Positions 4,808 through 46,460 of a stretch of 64,000 nt of DNA are shown here, piece after piece. This stretch comes from an uncultured bacterium (GTDB taxonomy: Bacteria; Babelota; Babeliae; Babelales; RVW-14), in contig CAVXAT010000004.1 of the NCBI GenBank assembly GCA_963759805.1, positions 59,483-123,482 of the forward strand, read 5' to 3'. The stretch's first letter is position 1. Each line of letters starts with the position of its first letter. The position numbers were made by a program, and so were the translations under genes. The notes under the pieces are model-generated. The model ran no database searches. It saw only the letters and a program-made list of their open reading frames with translations, and had not been told where the DNA came from.

Positions 4808-6213
4808 ATGAGGCATTTAAATAATTTTCAAAATTTGTTACATATTACTCTCTGTATAATTGTAACAGTTTTAGCTTTTGATAGATGTTCTGCAACGCCA
4901 CAATTAAGCCAGCAAGATCCTTATGTCATTTATTCGGTAAAGTGTTCGGATAAATTTTATGAAAAACGAGATAAGACGTGGTTTAAATTTGATCTTGCTC
5001 CTTTTTATGAGCAGACGCACTATGCCAGAAATGGAAATGGTCGCAAAGTTCCACTTAATAATATGAATGGTCAATGGAATATGTTGGCTCCGTTTTTTAG
5101 TATTGCCTCAATGACACCGAATACATTTAATGCGACAAACTACCCGAATTTATGGACCTCAAAACAGAACTTACTTATAACTGGTATAGACTATTCGCTG
5201 ATTACAAATTACATGCCGGATAATACCATCTACAATGGTGTGCCTGGCAGTCCAATGCAGTCGCTGGTTTCCTTTGGGTCAGGGAAATGTGATTACGAAA
5301 AAGTGGGTTTGCGTGGAAAAATTGGCTTTGAATTTGGATGTGGGGTTGGTATTAATGTAAAAACGGGGGTTGTCGATTATAAGTACACGGGAAGCGTTGG
5401 AGCAGCACAACCTCTGCCGCAGGGACTCAGCCGGCCTCCGACCTTTGGACTGCTCTTTTATCAGATTCTGCAAGTGCGGGTATATTTAATGATCTTGACC
5501 TTAATATAAAAAGGGATAGCAAAACGACATTTGAAGATACGCATGTTGAGCTTTATGCTCAAGTTCCATTTGATTTGAAGGATGCCGGAGAAACGGTTGT
5601 AACATTTGCTCCATATTTTTCGATTGGGGGATGGCTGCCAACCGGTGAGAAAAAGGATTATGAAAAATTCCATTCTCTGCCAACCGGTAACAACGGTCAC
5701 TACTGTTTAACTCTTGAAGCTTCTTTGAATTTTGATTTCCCTGGAACCATTCAGCTTAGCGTTGGCGGTGGGGCACTGATTGCCGATACACACGAATATT
5801 CCGTTTTCAGATTTCCTACAAACCAGTATCAAGAAGGTTTTTATCCTTGGACGACAAGCGTTAAGGAAGAGCCCGGAACTGTTTGGTATTTTAATGCGTC
5901 ATTTAAGGCAGAAAAGTTTATGTATGATTTATCCTTTTATTTTGATTACGTTTACACATATCACGACAAAGATGAGATTACAATTCAAGAGCCTTCAGAC
6001 GGTGTGAATTCTATAACAAGAAGGAATGCGTTTGAACAAATGAAGCCAAGTTATCTTGATCGAACCATCTGGAAGGATCAACAGTTTAATGCCGGATTGG
6101 GCTATAGAATAACTGACAATCTTACATTAGGGTGCGCACTTCAAACACACATTAGTGGTATAAGGGTGTTTAAGAATACCACCGCAATGGCATCCATTGA
6201 TTTGACGTTCTAG
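4808..6213 (+). pseudogene. outer-membrane beta-barrel protein (MOMP-like) interrupted by a frameshift
   Basis: ORFs 4766..5509 (frame 2) and 5575..6213 (frame 1). Frame 1 is already open from 5383, so one shift within 5383..5509 joins them. Signal peptide after the ATG at 4808 (RBS aagggag). The C-terminus ..ASIDLTF has the aromatic residue typical of an OMP beta-signal. Confidence 0.55.
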
Positions 6214-7701: not shown

Positions 7702-8157
7702 TTATTTAGTTTCTGTTGCTTCTGGAGTTTCTGCATGTTTGTGCGTTTTGTGCTCTTTGTGAGTCTTGTGTTCTGTTTTCTTTTTTCCATGATGGCATTT
7801 AACTTTATGTTCTTTGCACTCTGGACATACACATTCTTTGTCTTTGCATTTGGCGCAGGTTACCCCTTCATGATGTTTGCATTTAGCCATGTGATGTTTG
7901 CATTTGGCTTTATGAGGACATTTAGCTTTATGCTCTATGCATTTTGGACATTCACATGCTTTATCTTTGCATTTTGCACAGGTCCCTTCATGATGCTCGC
8001 ATTTAGCCTTGTGATGGACGCATTTTTCATGATGCGTGCCTTTTACCTCTTTGGCATGACGACGGTGGTGGCTCTCCTTTTCTGTTTTTTCAGCCGACGC
8101 ATACAAGCCGGCAAATGCTAACGAACAAATGGCCGCTGCCATAAGTAATTTTTTCAT
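7702..8157 (-). CDS. secreted His/Cys/Lys-rich repeat protein (putative metal-binding)
   Basis: Signal peptide MKKLLMAAAICSLAFAGLYASA from the ATG at 8157 (RBS aaggga). Two repeats of about 33 aa: HHKAKCEHHEGTCAKCKDKACECPKCIEHKAKC and HHMAKCKHHEGVTCAKCKDKECVCPECKEHKVKC. Confidence 0.55.
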   Translation of the reverse strand: MKKLLMAAAICSLAFAGLYASAEKTEKESHHRRHAKEVKGTHHEKCVHHKAKCEHHEGTCAKCKDKACECPKCIEHKAKCPHKAKCKHHMAKCKHHEGVTCAKCKDKECVCPECKEHKVKCHHGKKKTEHKTHKEHKTHKHAETPEATETK

Positions 8158-8375
8158 AACATATCCCTTTCTACGAAACCAACAATCAGGAAACACTCCT
8201 GTCCAAAAATAGCAATATTTTGGTGCAAAAAGCAAATATTTACTTATAAAGATAAAAACATATGTATTTGTGATATAAAATTGGCATGGAGATTCTTTTG
8301 CTTTTCAAGTATTTTTTGTTACTCTTTGATTTTGGGTTTATTGAATAAATTGCATAATTCCTGGAAGAATATCTT

Positions 8376-10503: not shown

Positions 10504-10547
10504 AAATCATGTTACTGATACCATTCTGCAAAATTAATGAACCATGC

Positions 10548-10651
10548 TTGCCCGCTCGTGGTGAGTGTTTTTTGCAGGCCGCACCCTTCGATACGCCTCG
10601 CGGCGCTCGGCACTCAGGGCGAGCGGCCAAAAAAAATGTATCGAACCATGC
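10548..10651. repeat. GC-rich modular repeat, copy C (intergenic or 5' of the pseudopilin gene)
   Basis: A GC-rich island in AT-rich DNA. ctcgTGGTgagtg (10555-10567) and tgtatcgaACCAt (10637-10649) enclose T6, a reversed copy of the 37051-37104 module, and A8. Flanked by the 9-nt direct repeat gaaccatgc (10539-10547 and 10643-10651). Confidence 0.7.
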
Positions 10652-10667
10652 GGGCATAAAATTTACT

Positions 10668-11246
10668 TTGAATCGGATCCAGAAATCATTTAGTTTAATT
10701 GAGATTCTGATTTTCTTAAGCCTGATTTTAGTTCTTGCTGCAGTTGCCGTGCCTAGGCTTGATTTTTTTAATAAATATCTCTTATCGCATGAGATGGATA
10801 AGCTTTTTGTAACATTTTCTTACTTGCAACAAAAAGCGATTGCCGGTAATAAAAAATACTCTATTATTTTTGATCAGATAAATAATCGCTACACTTATCA
10901 GGTTGAGAATTCACAGGCTGAAAGCTCAAATATTACAGTACAGTTGTCTGATGGCGTTAGATTCGGATTTATTGATGGGGTTATGGGGCCCCCAAGCAGC
11001 CCAACTAAAAAGATCGAAAAAGCCATAAATCTAGAAAAGATTATTAATAATTCAGATAGAAAACAAGAGGGAGAGCCTGTGGATAGAGTGAGCTTCTGGC
11101 CGGACGGCCGTATTTCACACGGTACCATTTATTTAGTAGATAAATCTTATAAATATATGGGCGCTTTAACTTGTTCCGTATCTCAGGTATCATATATACG
11201 TAGATACAGATACGAAAATTTACAATGGAAAATCTTGAGCAAATAA
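10668..11246 (+). CDS. type IV pilin-like pseudopilin (GspH/FimT-like)
   Basis: A TTG start at 10668 gives MNRIQKS|FSLIEILIFLSLILVLAAVAVP, a prepilin leader plus N-methylation-type helix. The ORF track starts at ATG 10509, which would translate the GC-rich repeat. The start is uncertain. Confidence 0.6.
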   Translation: MNRIQKSFSLIEILIFLSLILVLAAVAVPRLDFFNKYLLSHEMDKLFVTFSYLQQKAIAGNKKYSIIFDQINNRYTYQVENSQAESSNITVQLSDGVRFGFIDGVMGPPSSPTKKIEKAINLEKIINNSDRKQEGEPVDRVSFWPDGRISHGTIYLVDKSYKYMGALTCSVSQVSYIRRYRYENLQWKILSK

Positions 11247-11249: not shown

Positions 11250-14213
11250 TTGCATGGACTTTTAATGATTAAACAGTTTTTTAGATTGCTAAGTGCAATT
11301 TTTGTGGGATTAATCCTTTCGATTTGGATTATCCAAAATAATACAGAAGTTGAGACAGCAATTGCAAAAAAAATAATAGCCATATTAGAAAAAGAATGGA
11401 GTGTGAAGATTGATACGAAGTCTTCACGAGTTAATCTTTTCACTTGTTCGTTATATCTGAATAATGGTCATGTAAAGTACCTAAAAAAAGATAATTGTCA
11501 TTGGGCATTTGATCAGTGCAAAATTCATGTTCAGCCTCTAGCCTTTTTTCGTAAGAAGAAAGTCAATCTGGATCTTAAATTTGATAATGTTATTATAAAC
11601 TCCGGATTGACCGGTAGTACCCCTGATATTACTGAGCATATATCAAAGATGTTTTCTGGGGAGTCTTACGATTTAAATATTGCCGTAAAATCCGTTTGTA
11701 TAAATAATTTAGATTTAACAATTTTAAATCTGCCGCACACCTATCGTGCCCAGGTTGAAGGTTCTTTTTTAATACAAAAAATTAGACATGCGAAAAAAGA
11801 TAATTTGCCAAATTCTTGGCAGGGTGATCTTTTAATCAAGAATGCACAGTTTAGTATTGACGATAAAGTTTTTATTAAGCAGTTTTCAACGTCCGGAAAT
11901 ATTTATTATAGTAGAGTGGCCTCAGCATGGTTATCCAAAGTCGATAGTGTCATAAAGTCTTTAATCCCAACACCGGCTCAAAGTTACAGTATAAATTGCG
12001 TTTGGAATAACGATAAAAAATATTTAACAGTTAAAAACCCCGCCCTGGACCTTAATTTGGACGTATCATATCTTGGGGATAAGATTCTTGGTGATAAAAT
12101 AAAAGTTTGTGGGATTTTTCCGGCAGAGCTTGCATTGCAAGTGGCTGGATTTTTTGGCCTAGGAGTTACGGACTCTGGCGCGTCACCCAAGGGTGATGGT
12201 TCGACAAGCTCACCACGAGCGCGCCAACCTAATGGCGCTCGTCCTGCTGTGCCCGGCGTAGCCACGAAGGGCGAAGCCTGGGAGCCTGTCGAAGGATGCG
12301 AATTTCAGGAGGGAGCAGGAGTCACAGGTAAGTGTCAGCTAGATTGTGAGTGGTTATTAAATGATTCAAGACTTGATCCAAAGAGCAGTATAATTATTGA
12401 CGACTTAAAGATAAGAGATCTTAAATTGGGTAAAGTTATTTTAAAACTCAGAGAAAGCAGCAATGAAAAATTAGCAGCAACAATTGATTTTTTATATGAT
12501 CAGGATTTGCAAGCGTTGGGATTATTGAAGTGGGATTGGGCCAAATCAATGGGTAAAATAAAAGTGATGAATAAGTTACCCATTAAATTTCTCAAAGAAA
12601 CATCAAAGCGGTTGGGATTTGGTGGATATGAGATAGGCCCCAAAAATTTCTTTGTTAGCTCAGAGTTTGATAAATATTTTAATTTAAACGGGGATTACAG
12701 CCTTAATATTGCCGATCATTCTGCCAGCAAAACTTTTAAGTATGATGGAAAATTCAAGATCGAGAATAATGAACTAAAAATTAATGGGGCAACACAAAAA
12801 GGTGAGTACGAGATTAATTCTAAATTTTTCCCAAGGCCATCTATTTTAAAATGGGTTTATACCGTTAATGATAAAAAATTAATTGATTTGCAGTGTTGTG
12901 ATACACAAACTAACATTTTACATGGCAATATTAACTTTGCATTAATAAGATCCTTTTTAACGCAAAGCGCAAAGCATCTGGTTTTGGGTCGTGATTGTAT
13001 ATTTAATTTGGCTGTTGATCAGAACGATTTTTTCCATCTTCATGGTAATGCCAAGCTTGCAAGTGGTAAATTTTACATTCCGGAAAGTAGAAATCTAATT
13101 GAAAAATTTCAAACGGATTTTGAAATTAATATTCCATTGCGCAGGATTATTCTTAACAATTCACAGATTGGATTTTTTAAGGGCGAAATCTCAAGCCCTA
13201 AAATTATTGTGCAGTTGGATGAGAATAATTTACTTAGCAATCTACACATACCCCTAAAGATTAAAGATTTACTGCTTAATTGGAAAAATGATCTGCTCGC
13301 AATAGTTTACGGAAACGTTCTTATCAAGAAAAATTTGCAAGGAAATTACAAGGCATTGGCCAATTTGATTGTAAAAAAATCGATTCTGCGGGAAAATATT
13401 CTGTCGTTACCTGAAAATAAATCATTTTCTAGTCCCCTGGGCATATCTTTCTTGCAAAGCAATGATTTTGATTTTGATATCAGGCTTTCAAGTGAGCAAC
13501 CGATAAAGGCCAAAACCCCTTCACTTGAAACAAGCGCATCTATAAATTTGCGAATTTTATATCAAAAAAATAAAAATGTTATGAGAATTCCTCAACTAAC
13601 CGGATCTATTAAGCTTGATAGCGGTCATATTAAATTTTTGCAGACAAAATTATATTTTGAGTATGGTAAAATTCAATTCATATCAAACCAGATGAATGAT
13701 CCGATTATTGACTTGATAGCTCGTAATAGAATTAACAAGTATCAGATTACCCTGCAGGCTACAGGATCGTTACAAAAGCCAATAATTCTGCTTGAGTCAA
13801 ATCCCGAATTGACAGAAGAGCAGATATTGGGGCTTCTCTTATCAGGGTCTGAAGCCGCAAAACTTCAAACCGATCTGTTTGCGATGCTGGAGCAGAATTT
13901 GCACGATATGATTCTTGGTAATAAGACAATCTCTCCCGGTGCGACGAGTTTTTTCCAAAAGCTTGCCAAGCCATTTAAATATATTCAAATTACTCCGGAT
14001 TTCACAAATCAATCTGCAAGAGGTGGAATAAAGGGGACGGTGTCTGCTAATCTTACTGATCAGGTAAAAGCTCAAATTCAGAAAAACTTTAATTTACCAG
14101 GTGATTTTAGTGCTCAGATCGAATATCAGGTCGCTGATGATGTAAGTCTTAAGGGGAGCGTTGATCAGCGAGGGGAGCTTGGGGCAGAGGTAGAACTAAG
14201 GCTTAAACTTTGA
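11250..14213 (+). CDS. tamB: TamB/AsmA-like translocation and assembly module protein
   Basis: N-terminal TM helix in a 987-aa protein. The C-terminus has a DUF490-like pattern (ITLQATGSLQKPIILLESNPELTEEQILGLLLSGS...VELRLKL). Carries an in-frame GC-rich insert at about 12165-12325. Confidence 0.65.
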   Translation: MHGLLMIKQFFRLLSAIFVGLILSIWIIQNNTEVETAIAKKIIAILEKEWSVKIDTKSSRVNLFTCSLYLNNGHVKYLKKDNCHWAFDQCKIHVQPLAFFRKKKVNLDLKFDNVIINSGLTGSTPDITEHISKMFSGESYDLNIAVKSVCINNLDLTILNLPHTYRAQVEGSFLIQKIRHAKKDNLPNSWQGDLLIKNAQFSIDDKVFIKQFSTSGNIYYSRVASAWLSKVDSVIKSLIPTPAQSYSINCVWNNDKKYLTVKNPALDLNLDVSYLGDKILGDKIKVCGIFPAELALQVAGFFGLGVTDSGASPKGDGSTSSPRARQPNGARPAVPGVATKGEAWEPVEGCEFQEGAGVTGKCQLDCEWLLNDSRLDPKSSIIIDDLKIRDLKLGKVILKLRESSNEKLAATIDFLYDQDLQALGLLKWDWAKSMGKIKVMNKLPIKFLKETSKRLGFGGYEIGPKNFFVSSEFDKYFNLNGDYSLNIADHSASKTFKYDGKFKIENNELKINGATQKGEYEINSKFFPRPSILKWVYTVNDKKLIDLQCCDTQTNILHGNINFALIRSFLTQSAKHLVLGRDCIFNLAVDQNDFFHLHGNAKLASGKFYIPESRNLIEKFQTDFEINIPLRRIILNNSQIGFFKGEISSPKIIVQLDENNLLSNLHIPLKIKDLLLNWKNDLLAIVYGNVLIKKNLQGNYKALANLIVKKSILRENILSLPENKSFSSPLGISFLQSNDFDFDIRLSSEQPIKAKTPSLETSASINLRILYQKNKNVMRIPQLTGSIKLDSGHIKFLQTKLYFEYGKIQFISNQMNDPIIDLIARNRINKYQITLQATGSLQKPIILLESNPELTEEQILGLLLSGSEAAKLQTDLFAMLEQNLHDMILGNKTISPGATSFFQKLAKPFKYIQITPDFTNQSARGGIKGTVSANLTDQVKAQIQKNFNLPGDFSAQIEYQVADDVSLKGSVDQRGELGAEVELRLKL
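12165..12325. repeat. GC-rich modular repeat, copy A (in-frame inside tamB)
   Basis: 12195-12225 is identical over 31 nt to 42578-42608. gcccggcgtagc, agcctggg and ctggcgcg are shared with the other copies. Outer boundaries are approximate. Confidence 0.75.
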
Positions 14214-15958: not shown

Positions 15959-18900
15959 TTAATTCACGTTTTGGTAATCAAGTATTCCATTGGTTATATC
16001 CAATTGCCCGCCTGGGAGTATGTTTATTGCCAAGTCATCAGCTGAAGTTGCATCACCAAAGCAGATACTCTGCGCAAGACTTGTTGGTGTTCCAAATAAA
16101 ACATCGATTAATTGGTTGTCACTGTCAACGGTCAATGTTCCTTTTATTAAACACATTCCGACTGATGATGTTGCCAGTGCACATCCATTCAAATATAACT
16201 CTGAAGAAACATCTTGCATCGCAATTAGATTTCTACTCACAACACTTGGTGCATAATAGAAGAACACGCCATAATCCAATTTTAATCTTGAGTAACTGTT
16301 TATTGTCGATATTTGATCAGATGCGTAAATAAATTCATTTGAAAGCGAAAGCTCATTATTAGACTTGATTTCAACTTCGTCTTGGAATATCAGAGACCCA
16401 GCCGTAAAGCTGTAATCGCCCGTAATTTGTAATGTATCATTCTTGAATGTAATATTTGCGTTTGGACCTAAGCATCGTACATTGTTGTCTACAAGGCCAC
16501 TCAGGAGAAGGTTTTCTATCGTCAAGGTTCCACTTTGCATGATTTGGATGCTTTGCGTACCAAGATCAAGAGGGTTGCCATAACCATTGATTGCAGAATT
16601 CCCGCTGAATATCCATGGCATGGACATTGCCTGCTCATCTGCAAGATCAATTCTGCATCCATCGCCAAATGTTAATGTGGCACCGGCGCCCAGATGCACT
16701 GATGAGTCATCAAAGTTCTTCAGAACAACATTGTTAAGAATGACGTTACTATTTATCCCTGTTGTGAAAATATTGGGACTATCTTTTGCAAAATTTATCA
16801 TGTGTCCGTTACCATCAAGCACACAGCTGTTTGCAATATTTAGTGTATGGTCTGTACTCAAATAAATATCATATGGCATAGTATATGCAGGGGTGCTAAT
16901 TTGAGTAACACCCGGTCCATTTATGGTTATCATCTCTGCATTAATTTTTACAATAGCATTACTATTATTAACAGATAGAGTGCCTCCCGCCTGACCCAGT
17001 TTGATAATAGCGTTGCTGTTATCATAAACAAGCTCGGCAGGAGCTGCTGCATAAGTCACAATATTATTATTTAGAGAAGGTGCATATGAGACCAGGTTGT
17101 AATCTCCAAGCCCGCCGCCAACTGTATTCTTGATAATGGATCTGTCATTCCACCCAACCACAGTGTTTGCCTTCATGCGAATCTCAGAGTTGCTATTTTT
17201 TAGAACAAATCTTGCATCATCGTTGCTAAACATTGTGTAGCCAAGAGTGTTGTCGTAGTTAACAATTCCGTCGATTGAAACGTTTGCACCGGAAAGTAAC
17301 TTGACATTAAGATCACTTGTTTGACCTGCTGCCGAGTTGCCAAACACGATTGAGTTGGATATGGCTTGGGTCGATCTATTTACAACATAATTAGTACCAA
17401 ATATTTGTAGGCTATTGCTAGCATTAGCAGCAACAGCAAGATAGCGACCATCTGGTGACCAGGACACTGAATATGGACTATGTCCTATAGTTACACTACC
17501 AACTAATGTTGGGTTGCCGGACCCACTAAAACTACATATTAGCAGTGTGTTGCCATTATAACCAGTAACAGCAAGATAGCGACCATCCGGTGACCATGAT
17601 ACTGACAATGGTTGAGTTCCAGGATTTACACTGCCCACCAAGGCTGGACTAAGACCATAAAAGCTAAATATTTGCAACGTAATACTTGTCACATTAACAA
17701 CAGCAATAAAACGACCATCTGGTGACCAGGACACTGAATATGGCGCAGATCCTGTACTTACACTGCCAACCAATGTTGGATTACCGAGTCCACTGAAGCT
17801 AAACATTTGCAGCGTATTACTTGTCTTATTAACAACAGCAATAAAACGACCGTCTGGTGACCAGGACACTGAATATGGCGCAGATCCTGTACTTACACTA
17901 CCAACCAATGTTGGATTACCGAATCCACTGAAGCTAAACATTTGCAGCGTATTACTTGTCTCATTAACAACAGCAATAAAACGACCATCTGGTGACCAGG
18001 ACACTGAATATGGCGCAGACCCTGTACTTACACTACCAACCAATGTTGGATTACCGAATCCACTGAAGCTAAACATTTGCAGCGTATTACTTGTCTTATT
18101 AACAACAGCAATAAAACGACCATCCGGTGACCATGATACCGATATTGGACTATTTCCAGTACTTACGCTACCAACCAATGTTAGATACTCCGAACCACTG
18201 AAATTAAATATTTGTAGTGAATTACCGCCAGTACCATTATAGAAATTAACAACAGCAATAAAGCGCCCATCTGGTGACCAGGACACTGAATATGGATTAA
18301 TTCCAGTTACTGCGCCATGAATAAAGGCTATCGGTGAAGTATTTGTCGTGGCCAGATCTGATGTCGCATTACTTTTCATTGTAACCTTGTTGTCCAAGAG
18401 TATAGTTCCTTGGGTAAGCCTCAATCCAGTCAACGTTGTAAAGAACGAACATCCGTTTAGATAAAGTTGTGATGTTTGATCTGCCATTCTTATAAAATTA
18501 TTTGTAGTTGTCGTTGGCACGGTTGAATATGGGCAATCGGTAAATGTTGCAGGCGCAAGTGAAAAGGTTGTATTAACATCAAAAAATAGTCTGCCTCCTG
18601 ATGTTATCATCAACGGCTTTGGAGATCTGTAAACAAGTGCTGATGTGCCAGTAAATTTAACATCGTTATTAACAAACAACTTGCCGCGATCAAAATAAAA
18701 ATCATTTGCCGGAATCAAAGTTGCGTTGTCCAGCACAAGCTGACTGCGGTTTGAGGCCAACTTTATTGCAGGATTACCAGGGCCATTCAAAGTACTATCA
18801 ACAACAACGTTACGCAATGTCAACGTTATTGTGTCATCTACAAAGATTTCAGAATTAGCACCAATATTTACTGTGTTTCCGTTACCATCAAGCACTGCAT

Positions 18901-21900
18901 TGTTGCTGACGTGAACGATTGTGTTTGCAGGTATGTTCCAGTTCGAACCAACCAAAGTGTTTGGCACACCGGAATAATTTATTAGGTTAGTTGGAATTTG
19001 GGCATTTTTTGCACTTACATCGGAGATTAAATTGTAATCACCCAAACCGGCGTTTGAGACGTTAGAAATTATAGAGCTGTCTTGCCAACCAACCACGGTG
19101 TTTGGGGTCATGTGAATTTCAGAGTTGCTGTTTTTTAATACAAAGCTTGCATTGTTATTACTGAACATTGTGTAGCCCATGGTGTTGTCATAATTTAGAA
19201 TCCCGTCGACTGAGACATTTGCACCTGAAAGTAACTGAACGCCTAAGTCTGATGCTGATCCAGAGGCAGAGTTACCAAACACGATTGAATTGGTCAGAGC
19301 TTGGGTCAACCTATTTACAATGTAATTAACACCAAATACTTTTAACGTATTGGATGAATTATTAACAAGAGCAATAAAACGACCGTCTGGTGACCAGGCG
19401 ACTGAATATGGGTGAGTTCCGGTAGCAGCTACACCGTTGCCAGTAGTAACTTGAGTTGGGTTACCCGAACCACTGAATGTAAATATTTGCAATGTGGAAG
19501 AGTCACGATTAACAACAGCAAGAAAACGCCCATCCGATGACCAGGCTACTGCAAATGGAGAAGATCCGGTACTAGCTTGGCCAACCAATGTTGGGTTGCT
19601 GGTACCATTGAAGCCAAATATTTGCAATGTGGAGGAACCCAAATTAACAAGAGCAATAAAACGACCATCCGGTGACCAGACGACTGAATATGTGGTAGTT
19701 CCCGTAGTTACACCAGTGCCGGTAGTAATTTGGGTTGGGTTGCCAACCCCATTGAAGCTAAATATTTGCAATGTACCGACATCCCAATTAGAAACAGCAA
19801 TAAAACGTCCATCCGGTGACCATGCAACTGAAGCTGGTTTAGATCCGGTAGTTATACTGCCAACAAATGTTAGACTGCCACCCCCACTGAAGCTAAATAT
19901 TCGCAATGAATTTGGGGGACTACCAACAACAGCAATAAAACGCCCATCCGGTGACCAGGATGCTGCCCATGGGCCAGCTCCGGTAGCTACACCTGTGCCG
20001 GTAGTAACTTGAGTTGGGTTACCCGAACCACTGAATGTAAATATTTGCAATGTGTTAGTCGCCTGATTAGCAACAGCAATAAAACGCCCATCTGGCGACC
20101 ATAAAGCTGAAGTTGTGCTCCCTGCCACAGCTGCACTGCCAACCAATGTTAGGGTCCCAGCACCACTTACTCTAAATATTTGCAGAGAGCCCGGGGTAGT
20201 ATTATTAACAGTAGCAATAAATCTTCCATCCGGAGACCATGATCCCCAATTTGGTGTAGATCCGGTGGTTATGCCATGAAGACAAGCCACCGGGGTGGTA
20301 CTCGTCGTAGCCAAATCCGATGACGCATTGCTTCTCATCGTCACACGATTATCAAAAAACAATGACCCCGTTCTAAGTCTGCATCCGGTCAGTGTTGTTA
20401 AAAAACTGCATCCATTAAGATAAAGTTTCGATGTCTTATCTGCCATCCAAATAAAATTATTTGTTGTGTAAGTTGATTTTACCGAATAAGGACAATCGGT
20501 AAATGTTGCCGGTGCAACTGAGAATGTTGTTCCTGTATCAAAAAATAGTCGGCCACCCGATGTAATAAAGCTTGGCATTGGTGAAGTGTAAATAAATGCT
20601 GACGTTCCTGTAAATTTAACATCGTTATTAACAAACAGTTGACCATGGCTGAAATTAAAATCACCGATCATGTTTAGAGTTGAATTATCAAGCACAAGTT
20701 TACTTCTATTCGATGATAGATAAATTGCAGGATTACCCACAAAGTTTTCAGTGTTACTAATTACAACGTTTCTTAAAGTCAAAGTTACATTGTCATCAAC
20801 AAAGATTTCGGAATTAGCACCCAGATTTATAGTTCCACCATATCCATCCATTAAAATATTATTTTGAATGTGAACAATTGTATTTGCGGGAATATTCCAA
20901 TTAATGTACTGCATGCTGTTGTTAACTTCAGCGTAAGTTATGATGTTATTCGTACTGTAATCATACTGTTTTAAATTGTAATCTCCCAATCCTATACCAC
21001 TCACATTATTTACAATAGAACTATCTCGCCAGCCAAGCATTGTCGCTGGATTTATGCGAATCTCTGAGTTGCTGTTTTTTAACACAAAACTTGCATTGTT
21101 ATTACTGAATATTGATGTTGAATTCACATTATCGTAATTAACTATTCCGTCGACTGAGACATTTGCACCTGAAAGTAACTGAAGATTTAAGTCTGATGCA
21201 GAACCGACAGCCGAATTACCAAACACGATTGAATTAGACACAGCTTGTCCAGTTGTCTCTTGCCCATAAGCAAGAGCTCCTATCGACAGTGACTGGTAAC
21301 TTGCTGGGGTTGGTGTATAGCCACCGGCTGCCAGATAAAGGCCACTTGGATGTACATCAGTGCTATAAATGTAGGTACCAAAAGATACTGTTTGTATAAA
21401 AGTTAATGACGGAAATTCTATATAGAGTATCAGGTCTCTTGAGGCAGTATCATTTCCACCCACAAGTAAAAATCTTCCATCCGAGCTCCATTTTACCGTT
21501 CTTGCACTTGTCCCAAACGGTAACGCTGAGACTTGCACCGATGAGGTCGCTGCCGAATTCACTGAGTAAACATACATCGTGCCGGTGCCGGAAACCAACC
21601 CTGTTGTTGCCAAGTAGTTTCCATCAGGACTCCAGGAAACACTTGTTCCATACCCCGATGCATAATTTCTTGATAACAATGGAGATCCACCAAGGACTCC
21701 ATTAGTAACAGAGTAAACGGCTATACTTGCCGTTGCAGAGTTTGAAGCAATCGCAATATATTTTCCACTTGAATGCCAAGCAATTCCTAGAACCTCTGCC
21801 GTTGTTGCAGTTGAAACTTGATTTAAAGCACTTCCGGTGAACTGGTATATCGTCAAGTTTCGCATGTTACCGCCAACTGCCAGATAGTGCCCATCAGGGC

Positions 21901-22728
21901 TCCAACTTACCGGACCTGTGTATGAGGCACCCGTTGTACCAAGATTTGTCTGCACTACCGGTGAAGAAAAGTTATTAGCAGCTGAGTAAATTTGTAAGTT
22001 CGATGTTGATACCGTTAAAGATAAAGGTATATTTACTTTTCCACCCGCCGCCAAATACTGCCCATCAGGACTCCATGAAACACCAGATGCCGTCACCGAA
22101 AAGCCGACTGTTGCTAACGTTGACGTCGTCGTTCCAGAGAATAGATACACTGCCAAGTTATTTGCCTGTGGGCTCGTTCTTGTCTGACCCGCCACCGCCA
22201 ACTTTCTTCCGTCAGGACTCCAATGCAACTTATCAATTTCCCTGAATGCATTTGCAATACCGGTTCCAAGTGTAAGAATTGCGCTTGTACCTGTTGCCCT
22301 GAATGATGTCGCACTTGTCATTGTAACGTTATTACCAAGCAGCAACTGCCCTTTGGTCAGACGCATTCCTGTCAGCGTTGTTTTCAACGCCGTTCCGTCC
22401 AGTGTCAGCTTTGACGTGGCATCGCCCATTATCAACAGATCTTTTGCCAAAAGTCCGGTCGTACCGCTTGTAGAAGGTTCAAAGTAAAAGGTTGTCTTTG
22501 GGTTAAATTTAAGATTTGCTCCTGACATGATATAACTTGGAACAGTTGAGCGGTAAATAAATGAGCTTGTTCCGGTGAAAGTAACATCGTTGTAAGCAAA
22601 CAACTCTCCCTGATTAAAGTAAAAATCATTCACGAAATTCATTCTTGCATTATCAAGAACAAGTTTGCTTCTGCTTGTCGCAAGTTGTATCGGTGGATTA
22701 TTTGCAAAATTCTTACTGTTACTAATCA
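15959..22728 (-). CDS. giant modular surface protein, C-terminal about 2254 codons (severed from its N-terminus by an IS)
   Basis: Three 7-bladed propellers built from a 45-aa (V)SWSPDGRFIAV.. repeat (PD40/YVTN-like). They alternate with beta-helix-like segments (NWNIPANTIVHV.NN..LDGNGNT..IGANSEIFVDD..TLTLRNVV...NPAI.L.SNRS.LVLDN). The GTG start at 22729 in the ORF track is created at the IS junction. Confidence 0.8.
17698..18102. repeat. three near-identical tandem 135-bp units (45-aa propeller blades) inside the giant gene
   Basis: caacagcaataaaacgacc recurs at 17698, 17833, 17968 and 18103 (period 135). The units differ at only a few positions, and more diverged units flank them. Confidence 0.85.
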
Positions 22729-23894
22729 CAGGACTTCCTCAAAATAACAAACTGCCTGATCTAGTCTGATCTACAAAAAAAATGTACTCTCTCAGAAGGG
22801 TTTGATCGTACAAATCAAAATCTGAGGAGAGTACAATGCTTTATTCAAGCACAGTTCTAAAATATCCAGTCTTAACATTGTTGTCTAGAGGCAAGAGAAG
22901 CTTCGAAAATATGGGATTACTAATTCAGCGAAGTGGTGACACTGTAAAAAGGTTGCTACATCCAGCAGCGCACAGCTTCAATGTATCAAGAAGCATTTGC
23001 CAATCTATGTTTGCAAAAAATGAAATTTTATGTGTAGGCATTGATGATACCTTGTTGCGAAAAATTTATTCGAGATTTATGCAGGGTGCTGGAATGTTCT
23101 TTGATACGAAAATTGGTCGCAGTATCATGGCTTACAAGTTGGTGATTGGCATAATCACAGATGGTAAATTTGCAATCCCAATCGATTGTGCGTACATTTT
23201 TGCAAAAGAAATTCTCGATTCAATCGACGAAAAATTTCCAACAAAAGATGAAATTGCAAAATCATTTGTAAAAACAGCCATAAAACTTTTCCCAGACAAG
23301 AAAATAATTGTGGTTGTTGATGGACTTTACACATCAGTCGAGTTTGTACGATGGTGCAAGCTCGAAAACATCAAACTGGAGGCTCGAATGCATAGCAATC
23401 GCGTTGTTGAATACGATGGCGAGCGAATTAAAATCAAAGATCTTTTGAAGAAAAATGGATTGCGGCCCTTGGGCCGCCAGATGGCTCGTACAATATCTGT
23501 CGCTTGGCATTCAATTGATCTAGAGCTTACAATCGTGCGTCGTTTTGACAAAAAAGGCAGAGAATCGATTGTCTTTCAAGTGGCAACATATAAAGCTTTG
23601 CCTCGTGAACATGTTGCAAACTATAAAAAACGATGGAAAGTTGAAGAGCTGAACAGAACCACAAAACAAGAAATCGGGTTGCAAGAATGTTTTTCTAGAT
23701 CGCTTGAAACACAGCACAATCATGTAGCGTCTGTGCTTTTGGCTTATGCGTTTGCCCAGCTGGAGCGCAAATTTTCTAGACTTGATAACGTAGAACAAGC
23801 GCTCAGACGGTTTGAGACGAAAACTGTGAACTTTTTAATTGATAGATTTTCTAGATTTTCAAAGGGCTTTCAGCACTTTGATGCGTGAGTCCTG
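22729..23894 (+). mobile_element. IS element (IS4/IS5-superfamily DDE transposase), 1166 bp, 6-bp target duplication
   Basis: Ends caggacttcctc.. (22729) and ..gagtcctg (23894) form imperfect inverted repeats; the first 7 nt are identical. TAATCA is duplicated at 22723-22728 and 23895-23900. Confidence 0.8.
22836..23888 (+). CDS. DDE transposase (IS4/IS5 superfamily)
   Basis: GIDDT and VVVDGLY acidic motifs, plus YKKRWKVEELNRTTK, which fits the Y-2-R-3-E-6-K signature. RBS gaggag lies upstream. Confidence 0.8.
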   Translation: MLYSSTVLKYPVLTLLSRGKRSFENMGLLIQRSGDTVKRLLHPAAHSFNVSRSICQSMFAKNEILCVGIDDTLLRKIYSRFMQGAGMFFDTKIGRSIMAYKLVIGIITDGKFAIPIDCAYIFAKEILDSIDEKFPTKDEIAKSFVKTAIKLFPDKKIIVVVDGLYTSVEFVRWCKLENIKLEARMHSNRVVEYDGERIKIKDLLKKNGLRPLGRQMARTISVAWHSIDLELTIVRRFDKKGRESIVFQVATYKALPREHVANYKKRWKVEELNRTTKQEIGLQECFSRSLETQHNHVASVLLAYAFAQLERKFSRLDNVEQALRRFETKTVNFLIDRFSRFSKGFQHFDA

Positions 23895-29696: not shown

Positions 29697-29712
29697 GTTT
29701 CCTGCCATTTTT

Positions 29713-29819
29713 GTCATGCTGAACTAGTTTCAGCATCCATGGATGAATTTATTCCAAATTTCTGCAATGGGGCAATAGGAACAACTAATCCATGGATCCT
29801 GAAATAAATTCAGGATGAC
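29713..29819. repeat. AT-rich palindromic element, copy 1 (107 bp)
   Basis: gtcatgctgaactagtttcagcatccatgga ... tccatggatcctgaaataaattcaggatgac. About 31-nt inverted arms, each itself a hairpin, around a 45-nt loop. Near-identical to 37250-37349. Confidence 0.85.
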
Positions 29820-30076
29820 AAATCTGTGATCGTAAGATATTTTTGACACGCGTGGCCCCTTTTATAAATTATCGAGTTCACGTTAATTAAATAAAGTTTG
29901 CAAAAATTTTGAAGTCCAAGACAAGTATTTAGCAAAAAATTGCGCAAATTGCGATCTGGAGCGAATTTTACTATTCCGTTTTATGGGCATTCCCATAACT
30001 AAAATATTTCGTGTTAATTTTTTTCCAAACAGTTAAAATGTTTTATGAAAACTTGTGATAAGTTGAAAGGAGTCAA

Positions 30077-36898: not shown

Positions 36899-36978
36899 GA
36901 GGCATCCTTTGTTAACATCAGTTCGATAATTATAAAAAACAGCTGTGAATGCTAAAAGTGGCTTCCGACCAGAGATGT

Positions 36979-37349
36979 GTCATCCTGAATTTATTTCACA
37001 ACTGTCCGAAGTGCTTTTAAAGCCATCTGAACGCTTGTTGCGCTCACTCAAGGGCGCTCGCCCTGAGTGCCGAGCCTTGCGAGGCGTATCGAAGGGTACG
37101 CCCTAAAAACTTATTCTATCCGCCGTTGCGCTCTATCCTTCGATACGATTTGCTAAGCAACAAGTTGCTTGCAAATCACTCAGGACGAGTGCGATGAAAA
37201 CCATACGCATCCGACGATTCAAAGCTACGTTTAACACTTCGGACAGTTATGAATTTATTTCAGGATCCATGGATAGATTTATTCCAAATTTCTGCAATTG
37301 AGCAATAGGAGCAACTAATCCATGGATCCTGAAATAAATTCAGGATGAC
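36979..37349. repeat. AT-rich palindromic element, copy 2, interrupted by a nested GC-rich element
   Basis: The left-arm start gtcatcctgaatttatttca (36979-36998) and the remainder tgaatttatttcaggatccatgga...tccatggatcctgaaataaattcaggatgac (37250-37349) reconstitute a copy of 29713-29819. Confidence 0.85.
36999..37249. mobile_element. GC-rich modular repeat, copy D (251 bp, MITE-like: 14-bp terminal inverted repeats, 13-bp flanking direct repeat)
   Basis: aactgtccgaagtg (37000-37013) is the reverse complement of cacttcggacagtt (37235-37248). Flanked by tgaatttatttca at 36986-36998 and 37250-37262. The interior holds two modules shared with copies B and C. Confidence 0.75.
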
Positions 37350-37661
37350 AAATATGCAATTCAAAGGCTTCTCACTGTAAGCATTTTAAACTTTGCTGGG
37401 TTATCGAATTGGTGCTTTGTTATTAACAGTTCAAAATTAACTTGTAGATTAACATAATTTCTGCGGGTTTGAAAACATGGACAGAAGATCTCTTTCTAAA
37501 TTTTTGGAGCCTGGCCTTTACCGCTTACAATCTAGCCGATTATTTACAAATGATAAATTTATTGACTTAAGAGTATTCAACTTTGTAGCATGATACTAGA
37601 GGCGATAAGTTTAGTTTTATGCATTGGACCTAGTAACTCAATTTTACAGGGGGGAGGGTTT

Positions 37662-41686: not shown

Positions 41687-43687
41687 ATGCTAAGTAAAGA
41701 ACAGATTGATGCGAAACATCTTTTATACCTAAAACACCAGGCTCTTAATTTAAGAATAGATTCTATTCGGGCAACCACGCAAAGTAAATCAGGACATCCG
41801 ACCTCCTGCCTTTCTATAGCTGATATTGTTGCAACAATTTTTTTTAATTTTTTGCGTTACGATTTAAAAAATCCAAAACATCCAAATAACGATCGGGTAA
41901 TTCTTTCCAAGGGGCATGCAATTCCGGTGATATATGCTGCATGGAAGCAGTTTGGAGTTATCAGCGACGAAGAGCTGATGTCCCTGCGTAAGTTTACTTC
42001 CCCTCTTGAGGGACATCCAACGCCGACATTTGCATACAATGAAGCTGCAACAGGGTCGTTGGGCCAAGGCCTATCTATTGGCCTGGGAATGGCGCTGGCT
42101 GCGCGCCTAGATAAATTGGATTTCACAACCTATGTTTTGATGGGTGATGGAGAAATAGCAGAGGGTTCGATCTGGGAAGCCGCAGAACTGGCTGCTTTTT
42201 ATAAAGTTGATAATTTAATTGGATTTGTTGATTGTAATCGATTAGGGCAGTCTGGACCAACATTGCATGAGCATCAAGTTCAAAATTATGTGAATAAATT
42301 CCAAGCTTTTGGCTGGAAAACATTATCTATCGACGGACATGATATTTCGCAGATAGTTGATGCAATAAATGTTGCAAAAAGTACTAAGAATCAGCCAACG
42401 ATGATTATTGCAAAAACAGTTAAGGGGTATGGCCTTGAGGGAATTGAGAATGAGGCAAATTGGCACGGCAAGCCTCTTACTCAAGAAGCTGCAGAAAAAG
42501 CAATTTCACAGCTTAAAATGACATTTAATAGACTTCTTCCGAAGCCTGGCGCGTCCGTCTACGCCAAGGCTACGACGGATGGTTCGACAAGCTCACCACG
42601 AGCGCGCCTACTTAATCCCGCTCATCCTGAGTGTTTTGCGAAGCTTGCTGAGCAAAATGTATCGAAGGATTGTCCTGCCTGCCCGCCCGGCGTAGCTACC
42701 TCGAGCGGAGCCTGGGTGCCTGCCGACCTGCTTCAAGATCCAAACAAAAAATATTTTGAAAAGAATGCGTTACTCTCAACCCGCAAAGCCTATGGATACG
42801 CCTTGCAATCACTCGGGCAAGACAATCCTGACATTGTTGCCCTTGATGCTGATGTTAGCAATTCGACTTTTTCAGATATTTTTGCCAAAACCTTTCCTGA
42901 AAGATTTATTCAGTGTTTTATTGCTGAACAGAACATGATTGGGGTTTGCGCCGGGTTGCAATCTCGTGGCAAAATTCCTTTCGCTGCCACATTTGCAGCA
43001 TTTTTAACGCGTGCTTTTGATCAGTTGCGTATGGCAGGAATTGGGCGCAATGCCTTGAGGGTCTGCGGTTCGCATTGTGGCGTTTCAATCGGGCAAGACG
43101 GGCCATCGCAGATGGGGCTTGAAGATATAGCAATGTTCAATACGATCCCAAATTCCATAATCTTGTATCCATCGGATGCTGTTTGCACTTATAAACTTAT
43201 GAATTTGTGTGCTACTTACAACGATGGCATTTCTTACTTGCGTACGACTCGTGCAGACACGCCTGTCATTTACGATCTGGACGAGAAGTTTGAAATTGGC
43301 AAATGTAAAGTCCTGCGACAGAGCGAGAAAGACGTTTGTTGCCTTGTTGCTGCAGGGATAACTTTGCACGAAGCTCTTAAAGCATACGAGCAACTAAAAT
43401 CCCAAGGCATTTCAGTTGCTGTAATTGATCTTTACTCCGTCAAGCCCATGGATATCCAAACTATACTTAAAGTTGCCCAAAAATCTGGCAATAAAATTAT
43501 TTCAGTCGAGGATCATTATATTAACGGTGGAATTGGGCAGATGCTTGCAGCCCAAATTATTAATTCTGGAATTAAACAGAAAATGCTTGGAGTTACAAAA
43601 ATTTCCAGGTCCGGAACGCCTCAAGAACTTATGCATGACGCTGGAATAGACGCTGACAGTATTATCAGAGCTGTAAAAGAATTTTAG
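41687..43687 (+). CDS. tkt: transketolase (fused N- and C-terminal halves) carrying an in-frame GC-rich repeat at the inter-domain linker
   Basis: SGHPTSCLS, GSLGQGLSIGLGMA and MGDGEIAEGSIWEA (TPP-binding) in the N-half. STRKAYGYAL...FIAEQNM..GQDGPSQMGLEDIA in the C-half. Confidence 0.9.
   Translation: MLSKEQIDAKHLLYLKHQALNLRIDSIRATTQSKSGHPTSCLSIADIVATIFFNFLRYDLKNPKHPNNDRVILSKGHAIPVIYAAWKQFGVISDEELMSLRKFTSPLEGHPTPTFAYNEAATGSLGQGLSIGLGMALAARLDKLDFTTYVLMGDGEIAEGSIWEAAELAAFYKVDNLIGFVDCNRLGQSGPTLHEHQVQNYVNKFQAFGWKTLSIDGHDISQIVDAINVAKSTKNQPTMIIAKTVKGYGLEGIENEANWHGKPLTQEAAEKAISQLKMTFNRLLPKPGASVYAKATTDGSTSSPRARLLNPAHPECFAKLAEQNVSKDCPACPPGVATSSGAWVPADLLQDPNKKYFEKNALLSTRKAYGYALQSLGQDNPDIVALDADVSNSTFSDIFAKTFPERFIQCFIAEQNMIGVCAGLQSRGKIPFAATFAAFLTRAFDQLRMAGIGRNALRVCGSHCGVSIGQDGPSQMGLEDIAMFNTIPNSIILYPSDAVCTYKLMNLCATYNDGISYLRTTRADTPVIYDLDEKFEIGKCKVLRQSEKDVCCLVAAGITLHEALKAYEQLKSQGISVAVIDLYSVKPMDIQTILKVAQKSGNKIISVEDHYINGGIGQMLAAQIINSGIKQKMLGVTKISRSGTPQELMHDAGIDADSIIRAVKEF
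42536..42730. repeat. GC-rich modular repeat, copy B (in-frame inside tkt)
   Basis: About 63% G+C by hand count over 42541-42600, against AT-rich flanks. Shares a 31-nt identity with 12195-12225. Contains the module ctcaTCCTgagtg..gtatcgaAGGAt (42621-42670). Confidence 0.8.
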
Positions 43688-46394: not shown

Positions 46395-46460
46395 CCTGGA
46401 TCCCGGCCTTCCGACTTCGCTCTGCGAGCTACGACGGACAGGTCGCCGGGACGACGCCAG
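46395..46460. repeat. GC-rich repeat fragment, copy E
   Basis: cttccga...gctacgacgga is shared with 42536-42579. The internal stem is tcccggc/gccggga. Confidence 0.55.

What the first reader, a model, noticed from the sequence alone, without database searches (positions are those of the whole stretch)
12165..12325. GC-rich repeat element inserted in-frame inside tamB
An otherwise AT-rich 987-codon TamB-like ORF contains a GC-rich block of about 160 nt. The block stays open and encodes ..GVTDSGASPKGDGSTSSPRARQPNGARPAVPGVATKGEAWEPVEGCEFQEGAG... Positions 12195-12225 are identical over 31 nt to 42578-42608 inside tkt. By my alignment the similarity continues to 52 nt with 5 mismatches. gcccggcgtagc and agcctggg also recur in both. 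Both host genes read the element in the same element frame (DGSTSSPRAR .. PGVAT .. AW.P). Rickettsia palindromic elements are known to insert in-frame in this way. As far as I can tell from memory, this sequence family is different.
Basis: partly seen in the sequence, partly recalled or inferred. Interest (0 to 1): 0.7.

Follow-up and report, generated by a model that had tools for sequence, protein, structure and literature searches.

The report
In-frame palindromic repeat inside tamB
A 135-base GC-rich palindromic repeat sits in frame inside the tamB gene of an AT-rich Babeliales (Dependentiae/TM6) bacterium, with a sister copy in tkt, adding a floppy 45-residue loop much as Rickettsia palindromic elements do, but from a different repeat family that I could not find described.

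Summary
The tamB ORF (11250-14213) carries a 135-nt block (12177-12311) with 64% GC; the rest of the gene has 35%. All seven TamB orthologues that cover the site lack it, including ones about 80% identical. DNA comparison shows a clean 45-codon insertion. AlphaFold2 models it as a disordered loop.

The 31-mer shared with tkt is exact, against zero matches expected by chance. The tkt copy (42527-42721) replaces the linker between the two thiamine-diphosphate-binding domains.

The same element occurs in 14 AT-rich metagenome contigs. There it lies inside AspRS, iPGM, a PriA-like helicase, glycosyltransferase and other genes. Every full-length coding copy uses the only one of six frames that has no stop codon.

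Full-length copies are about 135-140-nt palindromes. They have AT-rich terminal inverted repeats around a GC-rich double hairpin, sometimes with nested modules. The tamB copy has a nested module and lacks the terminal repeats.

It therefore behaves like an RPE, but in another phylum and with unrelated architecture. Its hairpin arms match a repeat motif found in more than ten bacterial phyla, in viral contigs and on plasmids. The 13-nt loop of that motif is conserved and its stem covaries.

The transposition mechanism, any target duplication and translation remain unproven.

The parts
11250..14213 (+). tamB host gene (987 codons). The C-terminal TamB/DUF490 domain is intact.
12177..12311 (+). 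Inserted element in tamB: 135 nt, 45 codons (GASPKGDGSTSSPRARQPNGARPAVPGVATKGEAWEPVEGCEFQE), 63.7% GC. It is absent from orthologues.
12181..12198 (+). Small stem-loop SL1 (CGTCACC-CAAG-GGTGATG). The loop varies between copies. Some copies show an A-T to G-C compensatory change.
12198..12225 (+). Arm A of the core hairpin (GGTTCGACAAGCTCACCACGAGCGCGCC). It contains the loop motif TTCGACAAGCTCA found across bacterial phyla and lies within the 31-mer shared with tkt.
12234..12246 (+). Arm B, 5' part (GGCGCTCGTCCTG). It pairs with the inner part of arm A.
12247..12281 (+). Nested GC-rich module (CTGTGCCCGGCGTAGCCACGAAGGGCGAAGCCTGG; peptide AVPGVATKGEAW) that splits arm B. The same composite occurs in L129 and in iPGM P0011. 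Short-form copies lack it.
12282..12308 (+). Arm B, 3' part (GAGCCTGTCGAAGG), followed by the tail ATGCGAATTTCAG. The AT-rich terminal inverted repeats seen in full-length copies are missing here.
41687..43687 (+). tkt host gene (666 codons). It is a human-type transketolase.
42527..42721 (+). Sister copy in tkt: 195 nt, 65 codons. Its parts are the left terminal repeat (42527-42546), a second GC module (42553-42580), arm A (42581-42608), arm B split by a nested AT-rich hairpin (42617-42670), and another nested module (42674-42716). It replaces about 29 aa of the PP/Pyr interdomain linker.

Best explanation
The block is a copy of a small, non-coding, palindromic mobile repeat (MITE-like) that spreads within a clade of Babeliales (Dependentiae/TM6) genomes.

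Intact copies are about 135-140 nt. They have AT-rich terminal inverted repeats (AGACTTCTTCTGAAAC ... GTTTCAGAAGAGATCT). Inside these lie a small stem-loop and a long GC-rich hairpin built from two inverted REP-like units. Further short GC-rich modules can nest inside the hairpin.

The element has stop codons in five of its six frames. Where it lands inside a gene, only insertions in the one open frame, with a length divisible by three and at a structurally permissive site, survive selection.

The tamB copy is such a survivor. It is a composite copy (core plus one nested module) that has lost, or never had, the terminal repeats. It is inserted between two Gly/Ser-rich codons of a loop.

Shown here: the insertion, its family, the palindromic fold, the single open frame, and the permissive location. 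Inferred: that it is translated as a disordered 45-residue Pro/Gly/Ala/Ser-rich loop, that the host merely tolerates it, and that a transposase acting in trans moves it.
For: Absent from all 7 orthologues that cover the site, as a clean 135-nt insertion.

GC is 64% against 35% for the rest of the gene.

The 31-mer is shared exactly with tkt, with 0 matches expected by chance.

Fourteen more contigs carry the exact 23-mer, all at 33-41% GC.

Nine of 16 copies lie in long ORFs in the same sense frame, in unrelated genes (TamB, Tkt, AspRS, a PriA-like helicase, a glycosyltransferase, a membrane protein and others). Left-arm variants lie in antisense frames in TilS, Xaa-Pro aminopeptidase and a YfiH-like gene. 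iPGM P0011 carries the same composite. The host proteins share nothing except the element.

Full-length copies fold as long hairpins, z = -5.0 and -6.3, with 0 of 200 shuffles as stable. Across copies the stems are invariant and the loops vary.

The terminal repeats always occur attached to the core.

The TamB model has pLDDT 25-43 and no secondary structure for residues 304-356, between well-modelled beta regions.

The tkt copy sits in the interdomain linker, exactly where split-chain transketolases are cut. Other Babeliales tkt orthologues carry other palindromic-element peptides at that same linker.
Against: No empty/filled site pair was available for an intact copy, so a target-site duplication is not shown. 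The flanking AAT or TA could instead belong to the inverted repeat.

No autonomous element with matching ends was found. The two transposase genes in the window have unrelated ends: an IS200-type Y1 transposase at 54052-54444 and a DDE transposase at 22836-23888.

The tamB copy lacks the terminal repeats, so its mode of arrival is unclear.

Translation of the insert is untested.

Only 2 strong copies occur in 64 kb. The census rests on exact-match scans, which favour well-conserved copies.

One coding copy (L001) sits in a frameshifted gene.
Confidence: 0.8

Rival explanations
1. The element moves as single-stranded hairpin DNA, through a Y1 (HUH) transposase of the IS200/RAYT type, and not through its terminal inverted repeats. 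The mobile unit would then be the GC-rich hairpin core, and the AT-rich ends would be an accessory.
For: The core consists of two REP-like hairpin units. In the wider motif family the closing stems of these units covary strongly, and the units occur as inverted doublets like REPINs. The tamB copy was inserted precisely, yet it has no terminal repeats. The window encodes an IS200-type Y1 transposase at 54052-54444 (Pfam Y1_Tnp E 2e-42), with GC-rich repeat modules directly upstream.
Against: NCBIfam places that transposase in IS200 (142.8 bits). It scores well below the RAYT cut-off (34.7 against 80). Its own end hairpins differ from the element's hairpins. Intact copies do have 16-19-nt terminal inverted repeats that never occur apart from the core. 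The units have no conserved GTAG-type tetranucleotide. No Y1 gene was found next to 148 ORFs flanking the motif in other phyla.
Confidence: 0.2
2. The inserted peptide is a selected functional module, for example a flexible linker or an interaction loop, and has been recruited repeatedly by host proteins. It would not be merely tolerated selfish DNA.
For: The same peptide frame is used in all full-length coding copies. It lies at linkers or loops of proteins that look intact.
Against: The frame is forced: the other five frames contain stops (read directly from the consensus). Conservation follows the DNA stems, while the loops vary, rather than following codon positions. The host proteins are functionally unrelated. 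Close orthologues do without the segment. The insert is modelled as disordered.
Confidence: 0.08
3. The block is not part of the mature protein. It would be removed from the mRNA, or skipped by the ribosome, as with the translational bypass elements of some yeast mitochondria.
For: The element forms a strong hairpin that could be a processing or bypass signal.
Against: Every full-length coding copy keeps an open frame and a length divisible by three. Neither would be needed if the element were skipped. There is no Rfam intron or ribozyme match. The element is far too short for an intein.
Confidence: 0.04
4. The block is an artefact. Either it is an assembly chimera with GC-rich DNA, or tamB and tkt share it through a private gene-conversion event.
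For: None beyond the sharp compositional contrast.
Against: The same element, with its AT-rich ends, appears in independent assemblies from several projects and in many different genes. In tamB the junctions are exact at codon level.
Confidence: 0.01

Closest known systems
Rickettsia palindromic elements (RPE-1 to RPE-10; also protein-coding palindromic repeats of Wolbachia)
   Same: Both are 100-150-bp palindromic interspersed repeats of an obligate intracellular bacterium with a reduced, AT-rich genome. Both occur in intergenic and coding DNA. Both insert in frame into unrelated housekeeping genes, encode a conserved peptide, and sit at structurally compatible sites (PMC10969869, PMC1779305).
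   Different: The phylum differs (Dependentiae, not Alphaproteobacteria). The core is strongly GC-rich in an AT-rich host. The architecture is modular and nested. The core is made of two REP-like units that match a motif found across bacterial phyla, and AT-rich terminal inverted repeats are present. No sequence comparison with RPE consensus sequences was possible here.
Coxiella burnetii QMITE1 and QMITE2 (PMC5896051)
   Same: Both are small palindromic MITEs of an intracellular bacterium. QMITE1 overlaps annotated ORFs and encodes peptides. QMITE2 has full-size and truncated REP-like versions, and relatives in distant bacteria. This parallels the full-length, trimmed and half copies here, and the cross-phylum motif.
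   Different: QMITE2 is mainly in 3' UTRs and intergenic DNA. It carries a GTAG REP targeted by IS1111. QMITE1 is 300-400 bp. The paper's text gives no sequences, so homology could not be tested.
REP/REPIN elements mobilised by RAYT transposases
   Same: Both have units of about 25-27 nt that are themselves hairpins. The units are usually arranged as inverted doublets, are dispersed through genomes, and show covariation that preserves the stem.
   Different: There is no GTAG-type 5' tetranucleotide and no RAYT gene nearby. The motif is shared across many phyla rather than being species-specific. In Babeliales it is intragenic, not extragenic.
Rfam RF02901 AaHKsRNA41 (Aggregatibacter sRNA 41)
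   Same: The Rfam consensus contains the same kind of doublet (…GCUGAgCUUGcCGAAGC … gUUCGgCAAGcUCAgC…). It aligns to a Methylumidiphilus copy of the motif.
   Different: The score is only 31 bits against a gathering score of 97. It does not match in the window at all. This is a resemblance, not membership.
Mobile GC clusters of yeast mitochondrial DNA (from my own knowledge, not checked here)
   Same: Both are GC-rich palindromic mobile elements in a very AT-rich genome. Some of the yeast clusters are inserted in frame in a protein gene (VAR1).
   Different: The yeast elements are organellar and far shorter, and the sequences are unrelated.

Membership tests
Rickettsia palindromic elements (RPE) | Interspersed repeat of 100-150 bp able to form a long hairpin | tested here: met
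   Intact copies are about 135-140 nt and fold with z = -5.0 and -6.3. The tamB copy keeps the core hairpin only (z = -1.85).
Rickettsia palindromic elements (RPE) | In-frame insertion in unrelated protein-coding genes that leaves the ORF intact | tested here: met
Rickettsia palindromic elements (RPE) | Sequence homology to an RPE family consensus, or occurrence in Rickettsiales | not testable with these tools
   No RPE sequences were on hand. The host is Babeliales/Dependentiae according to the names given to its orthologues, so taxonomic membership is not met.
MITE (miniature inverted-repeat transposable element) | Small, multi-copy, with no transposase gene of its own | tested here: met
MITE (miniature inverted-repeat transposable element) | Terminal inverted repeats | tested here: met
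   Present in intact copies L127-L130 and at the left end of the tkt copy. Absent from the tamB copy.
MITE (miniature inverted-repeat transposable element) | Target-site duplication | tested here: inconclusive
   AAT or TA flanks both ends of several copies, but this could be part of the inverted repeat. No empty site was available for an intact copy.
MITE (miniature inverted-repeat transposable element) | A related autonomous IS with the same ends | tested here: not met
   None found in the window or in about 170 kb of Babeliales loci. Whole genomes were not searched.
REP/REPIN-RAYT system | Short imperfect-palindrome units, commonly as inverted doublets | tested here: met
REP/REPIN-RAYT system | Conserved GTAG-like tetranucleotide at the unit's 5' end | tested here: not met
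   The unit consensus is (G)YSS-TTCGACARGCTCA-SSR(C)GAACGG.
REP/REPIN-RAYT system | An associated RAYT gene | tested here: not met
   The window's Y1 transposase is IS200-type; it scores 34.7 bits on the RAYT model against a cut-off of 80. No Y1 transposase was found among 148 flanking ORFs in other phyla.
Intein or self-splicing intron | Splicing domains, or a catalytic RNA structure | tested here: not met
   45 aa is too short for an intein. There is no Rfam match at E <= 1.

The most novel reading that the evidence does not exclude
The GC-rich core of this Babeliales element may be a captured doublet of an undescribed structured repeat found across bacterial phyla. The repeat has a 13-nt invariant loop, TTCGACARGCTCA, closed by a 3-4-bp stem that covaries, followed by CGAACGG. 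It occurs in Alpha-, Beta-, Gamma-, Delta- and Epsilonproteobacteria, Chloroflexota, Bacteroidota, Cyanobacteria, Acidobacteriota, Nitrospirales and others, and also in viral contigs and on plasmids. On this reading a REP-like hairpin has spread horizontally across phyla. In Dependentiae it gained AT-rich terminal repeats and became a coloniser of coding sequences. With other palindromic families it makes permissive linkers, such as the Tkt interdomain linker, recurrent insertion hot spots.
Probability: 0.3. Interest if true: 0.7.

Novelty: new member of a known kind. Interest (0 to 1): 0.55.

Why it matters
In-frame colonisation of housekeeping genes by palindromic repeats has been treated largely as a peculiarity of Rickettsia and Wolbachia. 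A recent MITE review only speculates that it may happen elsewhere (PMC10969869).

An independent, sequence-unrelated system in Dependentiae, another lineage of obligate intracellular bacteria with small AT-rich genomes, suggests the phenomenon goes with that lifestyle. Weak selection, compact genomes and few intergenic landing sites may all favour it.

The finding has practical consequences:
- These elements inflate and distort protein alignments.
- They create spurious small ORFs and spurious 'homology' between unrelated proteins.
- They can split gene calls in MAG annotation, as in L001.

They also mark structurally permissive sites in essential proteins.

The link to a hairpin motif conserved across phyla, which has no Rfam family and no hit in the searchable literature, is a separate lead worth pursuing.

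Tried and rejected
1. Rfam at E <= 1 found no family at either copy in the window. In other phyla it found only a sub-threshold resemblance to AaHKsRNA41.

2. Full-text searches returned nothing. I tried characteristic peptides (SLSNHE, FDKLRANG, LRQAQGER, VRQAHHE, PSTSSGRT and others) and DNA strings of the arms. Searches for Dependentiae/TM6 together with MITE or palindromic elements also found nothing. The TM6 comparative-genomics paper does not mention repeats or transposons.

3. Contig look-ups for P0011, P0012 and P0013 failed, so there is no DNA for the iPGM copy.

4. I looked for a gene family consistently next to the cross-phylum motif, using 148 flanking ORFs. None was found, and no transposase.

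5. I looked for terminal repeats around the DDE transposase (22836-23888) that would match the element. None matched. The IS200 end hairpins do not match either.

6. I looked for empty-site orthologues of the other host genes among the loci held, in order to define a target duplication. All cross-hits were the element itself.

7. An exhaustive HMMER search with the insert peptide found only 5 cluster representatives, one of them a spurious tandem-repeat protein. It undercounts, because large host proteins are represented by insert-free cluster members.

8. I rejected the idea that the shared frame shows adaptation. It follows from the stops in the other five frames.

9. I first folded the tamB and tkt blocks as RNA. 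Neither was more stable than GC-matched shuffles (z = -0.5 and -0.3). Only intact copies from other contigs show a significant palindrome.
Full report

Yes. The window averages 38% GC. The tamB ORF (11250-14213, 987 codons; Pfam TamB E 9e-29) contains a block where a 200-nt window reaches 58% GC. The flanks are at about 31-35%.

Positions 12195-12225 are identical to 42578-42608, which lie inside a transketolase ORF (41687-43687). With up to three mismatches this 31-mer has two matches in the window and none in 100 dinucleotide-preserving shuffles. The match extends to 52 nt at 90% identity. A second shared block follows, containing GCCCGGCGTAGC and AGCCTGGG. Both genes read the shared part as DGSTSSPRAR.

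**2. Is it an insertion?**

The closest proteins are TamB of Candidatus Babeliales (Dependentiae/TM6) MAGs. The tkt orthologues carry the same taxon names.

Seven TamB orthologues of 926-958 aa cover the site, at 30-81% identity. All of them lack the segment. DNA of two syntenic loci (L136, L137: ruvA, a pilin-like gene, tamB) shows the difference exactly. The window has 135 extra nucleotides, 12177-12311, between codons that otherwise align one to one (GFFG-LGVTDS | insert | GAGVTGK against GFFG-SGISSV | GSGVSGR). The insert is 45 codons, 63.7% GC, against 34.6% for the rest of the gene.

An AlphaFold2 model built on the eight-sequence alignment is only moderate overall (mean pLDDT 62.7). It models residues 1-300 and 357-700 as confident beta structure, with blocks mostly at 70-88. 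Residues 304-356 have pLDDT 25-43 and no secondary structure. The insert is therefore modelled as a disordered excursion from a Gly/Ser-rich loop.

**3. The tkt copy.**

Babeliales transketolases are typically 625-632 aa, and the window's is 666 aa. In the closest insert-free orthologues the segment between the two domains reads KEESEFKPSMKY…KTIFVQ. In the window, about 29 of these residues are replaced by 65 element-derived residues (42527-42721).

Against solved structures the protein matches human-type transketolase in two stretches, 6-276 and 352-664. The gap corresponds to human residues 275-303, the linker between the PP and Pyr domains. This is also the exact point where the two chains of the split transketolase of Carboxydothermus end and begin.

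Other Babeliales tkt orthologues carry different palindromic-element peptides at this same linker, such as CHPELVSGS…, VRPEPVEG… and FDKVQDKL…SPELVEG. The linker is a recurrent landing site.

**4. The family.**

A profile of the insert peptides found seven more proteins with the motif GASP.GDGSTSSPRAR.L.GARP[optional module]EPVEGCE[FC]Q. The TamB search had already pulled out a phosphoglycerate mutase (P0011) with the same composite peptide.

An exact 23-mer from arm A occurs in 14 metagenome contigs, all at 33-41% GC, and in no viral contig.

Aligning these copies shows what the intact element looks like: (AAT)AGACTTCTTCTGAAACC-GGCGCGTCACC-NNNN-GGTGATGG-TTCGACAAGCTCACCACGAGCGCGCC-loop-GGCGCTCGTCCTGAGCCTGTCGAAGG-ATGCGAGTTTCAGAAGAGATCT(AAT). 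The parts are:
- AT-rich terminal inverted repeats.
- A small stem-loop.
- A long GC-rich hairpin.

Intact copies fold far better than shuffles, with z = -5.0 and -6.3 and 0 of 200 shuffles as stable. Across copies the stems are invariant and the two loops vary. The terminal repeats never occur without the core.

The copies fall into these variants:
- A short form.
- A composite with a nested 35-nt module: tamB, L129 and iPGM.
- A form with a different right arm (…PLILSLSKD…): L126, P0016 and tkt.
- Left-arm-only half elements.

The composite occurs in three unrelated genes, so it moved as a unit. The tamB copy is a composite without the terminal repeats. The tkt copy keeps the left repeat and carries three extra nested pieces.

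**5. Coding context.**

Of 16 copies, nine lie in long ORFs in one and the same sense frame:
- TamB and Tkt.
- A PriA-like helicase.
- A glycosyltransferase.
- The N-terminus of a mevalonate-kinase-like gene.
- Proteins of 395, 796 and 622 aa.
- AspRS.

Half elements lie in antisense frames inside a YfiH-like gene, TilS and an Xaa-Pro aminopeptidase. tblastn shows that the host proteins share only the element.

Reading the consensus directly shows why one frame dominates. The terminal repeats contain TAG and TGA in the other two sense frames, and every antisense frame of the full-length form has a stop. The common frame is therefore a survival filter, not evidence of design.

One copy (L001) has a 2-nt deletion in the first loop, and the gene there is called in two pieces.

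nhmmer finds only the two strong copies in this 64-kb window. An exhaustive peptide search finds only a handful of cluster representatives. The family is narrow.

**6. Mechanism.**

What is shown: a multi-copy palindromic element, a precise in-frame insertion, absence from orthologues, and location in a loop or linker.

What is inferred: movement by a transposase acting in trans, and translation into a tolerated disordered loop. No target duplication could be established and no autonomous partner was found.

The window holds two transposase genes:
- An IS200-type Y1 transposase, 54052-54444, lies between tRNA-Tyr and tRNA-Gly, with GC-rich repeat modules just upstream.
- An IS4/IS5-type DDE transposase lies at 22836-23888.

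Neither has ends resembling the element. A hairpin-based (Y1) mechanism stays open as a rival. The tamB copy lacks terminal repeats, and the core is built from REP-like units.

**7. An unexpected wider link.**

Working from memory, I thought peptides of this type recur in hypothetical proteins of many bacteria. I therefore scanned one genome per species with TTCGACARGCTCASSRCGARCG, a pattern for which roughly 2 matches are expected by chance by my own estimate.

The hits include Sphingomonadales, Burkholderiales, Methylococcales, Nitrosomonadales, Desulfobulbaceae, Sulfuricurvum, Dehalococcoidia/Chloroflexota, Bacteroidota, cyanobacteria, Acidobacteriota, Nitrospirales and others. It occurs on plasmids of Moraxella, Sphingobium and Comamonas, in unannotated DNA.

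The unit is (G)YSS-TTCGACARGCTCA-SSR(C)GAACGG. The three pairs that close the 13-nt loop covary:

| Pair (counted outward from the loop) | Watson-Crick pairs observed (of 155) | Expected if independent |
|---|---|---|
| 1 | 151 | about 100 |
| 2 | 148 | about 78 |
| 3 | 142 | about 75 |

The swaps seen are CG/GC and CG/TA. The viral set behaves the same way.

Units mostly form inverted doublets. No gene family is consistently adjacent.

Both arms of the Babeliales core align with doublets from four proteobacterial classes, with 38 invariant columns. This includes a right arm that the search pattern could not have selected.

Rfam has no family for the motif. The nearest is AaHKsRNA41, at 31 bits against a gathering score of 97, whose consensus contains a similar doublet.

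I found no paper describing the motif. The searchable library is open-access only, so this is not proof of novelty.

**8. Comparison with what is known.**

In behaviour this is an RPE-like system. RPEs are palindromic repeats of 100-150 bp that are abundant in the coding and intergenic DNA of Rickettsia. They insert in frame into unrelated genes and are compatible with the protein fold (PMC10969869, PMC1779305).

It is not an RPE by taxon or architecture, and sequence homology could not be tested. It meets the size, copy-number and terminal-repeat criteria of a MITE. The target duplication and the autonomous partner remain open. Its core resembles REP/REPIN doublets but fails the GTAG and RAYT criteria.

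Coxiella QMITE2 is the nearest described analogue of the wider motif. It is a REP-containing MITE with truncated versions and with relatives in alphaproteobacteria (PMC5896051). No sequence was available for comparison.

**9. Verdict.**

It is a new member of a known kind: selfish palindromic repeats living in frame inside protein genes. It occurs in a phylum where I found no report of this. The possible cross-phylum origin of its hairpin core adds further interest.

Noticed in passing
window 10509-11246, element about 10538-10659; inverted partial copy at 37052-37109: The pseudopilin-like gene after ruvA has about 49 extra N-terminal residues (…PFDTPRGARHSGRA…) before its N-methylation motif. 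They are encoded by another GC-rich palindromic element that is absent from the orthologues in L136 and L137. This is either a third in-frame insertion, inside the cleaved leader peptide, or an insertion just upstream of the true start.
   Followed up: partly
window 29720-29826, 36912-37013, 37235-37356: A second, AT-rich palindromic repeat family has perfect 25-nt inverted repeats, TGAATTTATTTCAGGATCCATGGAT. Its translation (HPEFISGSM) appears in frame in the tkt linker of other Babeliales orthologues (P0030, P0032, P0033).
   Followed up: partly
tkt orthologues P0020-P0138 (linker between WHG and TRKAYG): The interdomain linker of Babeliales transketolase is normally 67-68 aa. In several lineages it is expanded by 8-36 aa with different palindromic-element peptides, which suggests an insertion hot spot.
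   Followed up: partly
loci L002-L121, L139-L258; plasmid hits H1-H25: A hairpin repeat, (G)YSS-TTCGACARGCTCA-SSR(C)GAACGG, has a covarying closing stem and usually forms inverted doublets. It occurs in more than ten phyla, in viral contigs and on plasmids. No Rfam family or literature hit was found. The nearest Rfam family is AaHKsRNA41, below threshold.
   Followed up: partly
window 54052-54444 (+), flanks 53800-54050 and 54445-54570: An IS200-type Y1 transposase gene with typical end hairpins lies between tRNA-Tyr and tRNA-Gly. Directly upstream, at 53800-53920, are GC-rich repeat modules related to those in tkt (42553-42580), at 46387-46483 and in L001/L123/L132.
   Followed up: partly
window 22836-23888 (+): A DDE (IS4/IS5-type, Pfam DDE_Tnp_1) transposase gene lies between two paralogous beta-propeller repeat genes. 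It has no recognisable terminal repeats.
   Followed up: partly
window 58410-61637 and 61591-62727: rpoB is split into two overlapping ORFs, and both match Rpb2 domain 6. The break is near an A-run (…TCTAAAAAAGATAG…). It could be a frameshift, a homopolymer assembly error or something programmed.
   Followed up: no
window 15959-22729 (-), 24772-26517 (-), 27873-29717 (-): A 2,256-aa protein built of WD40/PD40-like beta-propeller repeats, with 135-nt tandem units, has a 581-aa paralogue. An autotransporter beta-domain protein lies nearby. GC-rich islands at 29123-29242 and 5364-5471 were not examined.
   Followed up: no
window 7702-8235 (-): A small secreted-looking protein has His/Cys/Lys-rich tandem repeats (…KCKHHMAKCKHHEG…) and no Pfam match. 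It may bind metal.
   Followed up: no
window 12072-12101: A tandem duplication of five codons (LGDKI LGDKI) lies in tamB, 75 nt upstream of the insert. All orthologues lack it.
   Followed up: no
L001 3486-5377 and 9935-10112: A related Babeliales contig has a group II intron (Rfam D1-D4 and D5 matches, with an RT ORF). It also has a PriA-like gene carrying two adjacent GC-rich modules. A 2-nt deletion in the element splits the gene call.
   Followed up: partly
L122 390-467 and protein P0016: Two YfiH-like orthologues carry family members at about the same position, after QVHGT.G.YI, but in opposite orientation and of different subtype. This points to independent hits at one permissive site.
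   Followed up: no
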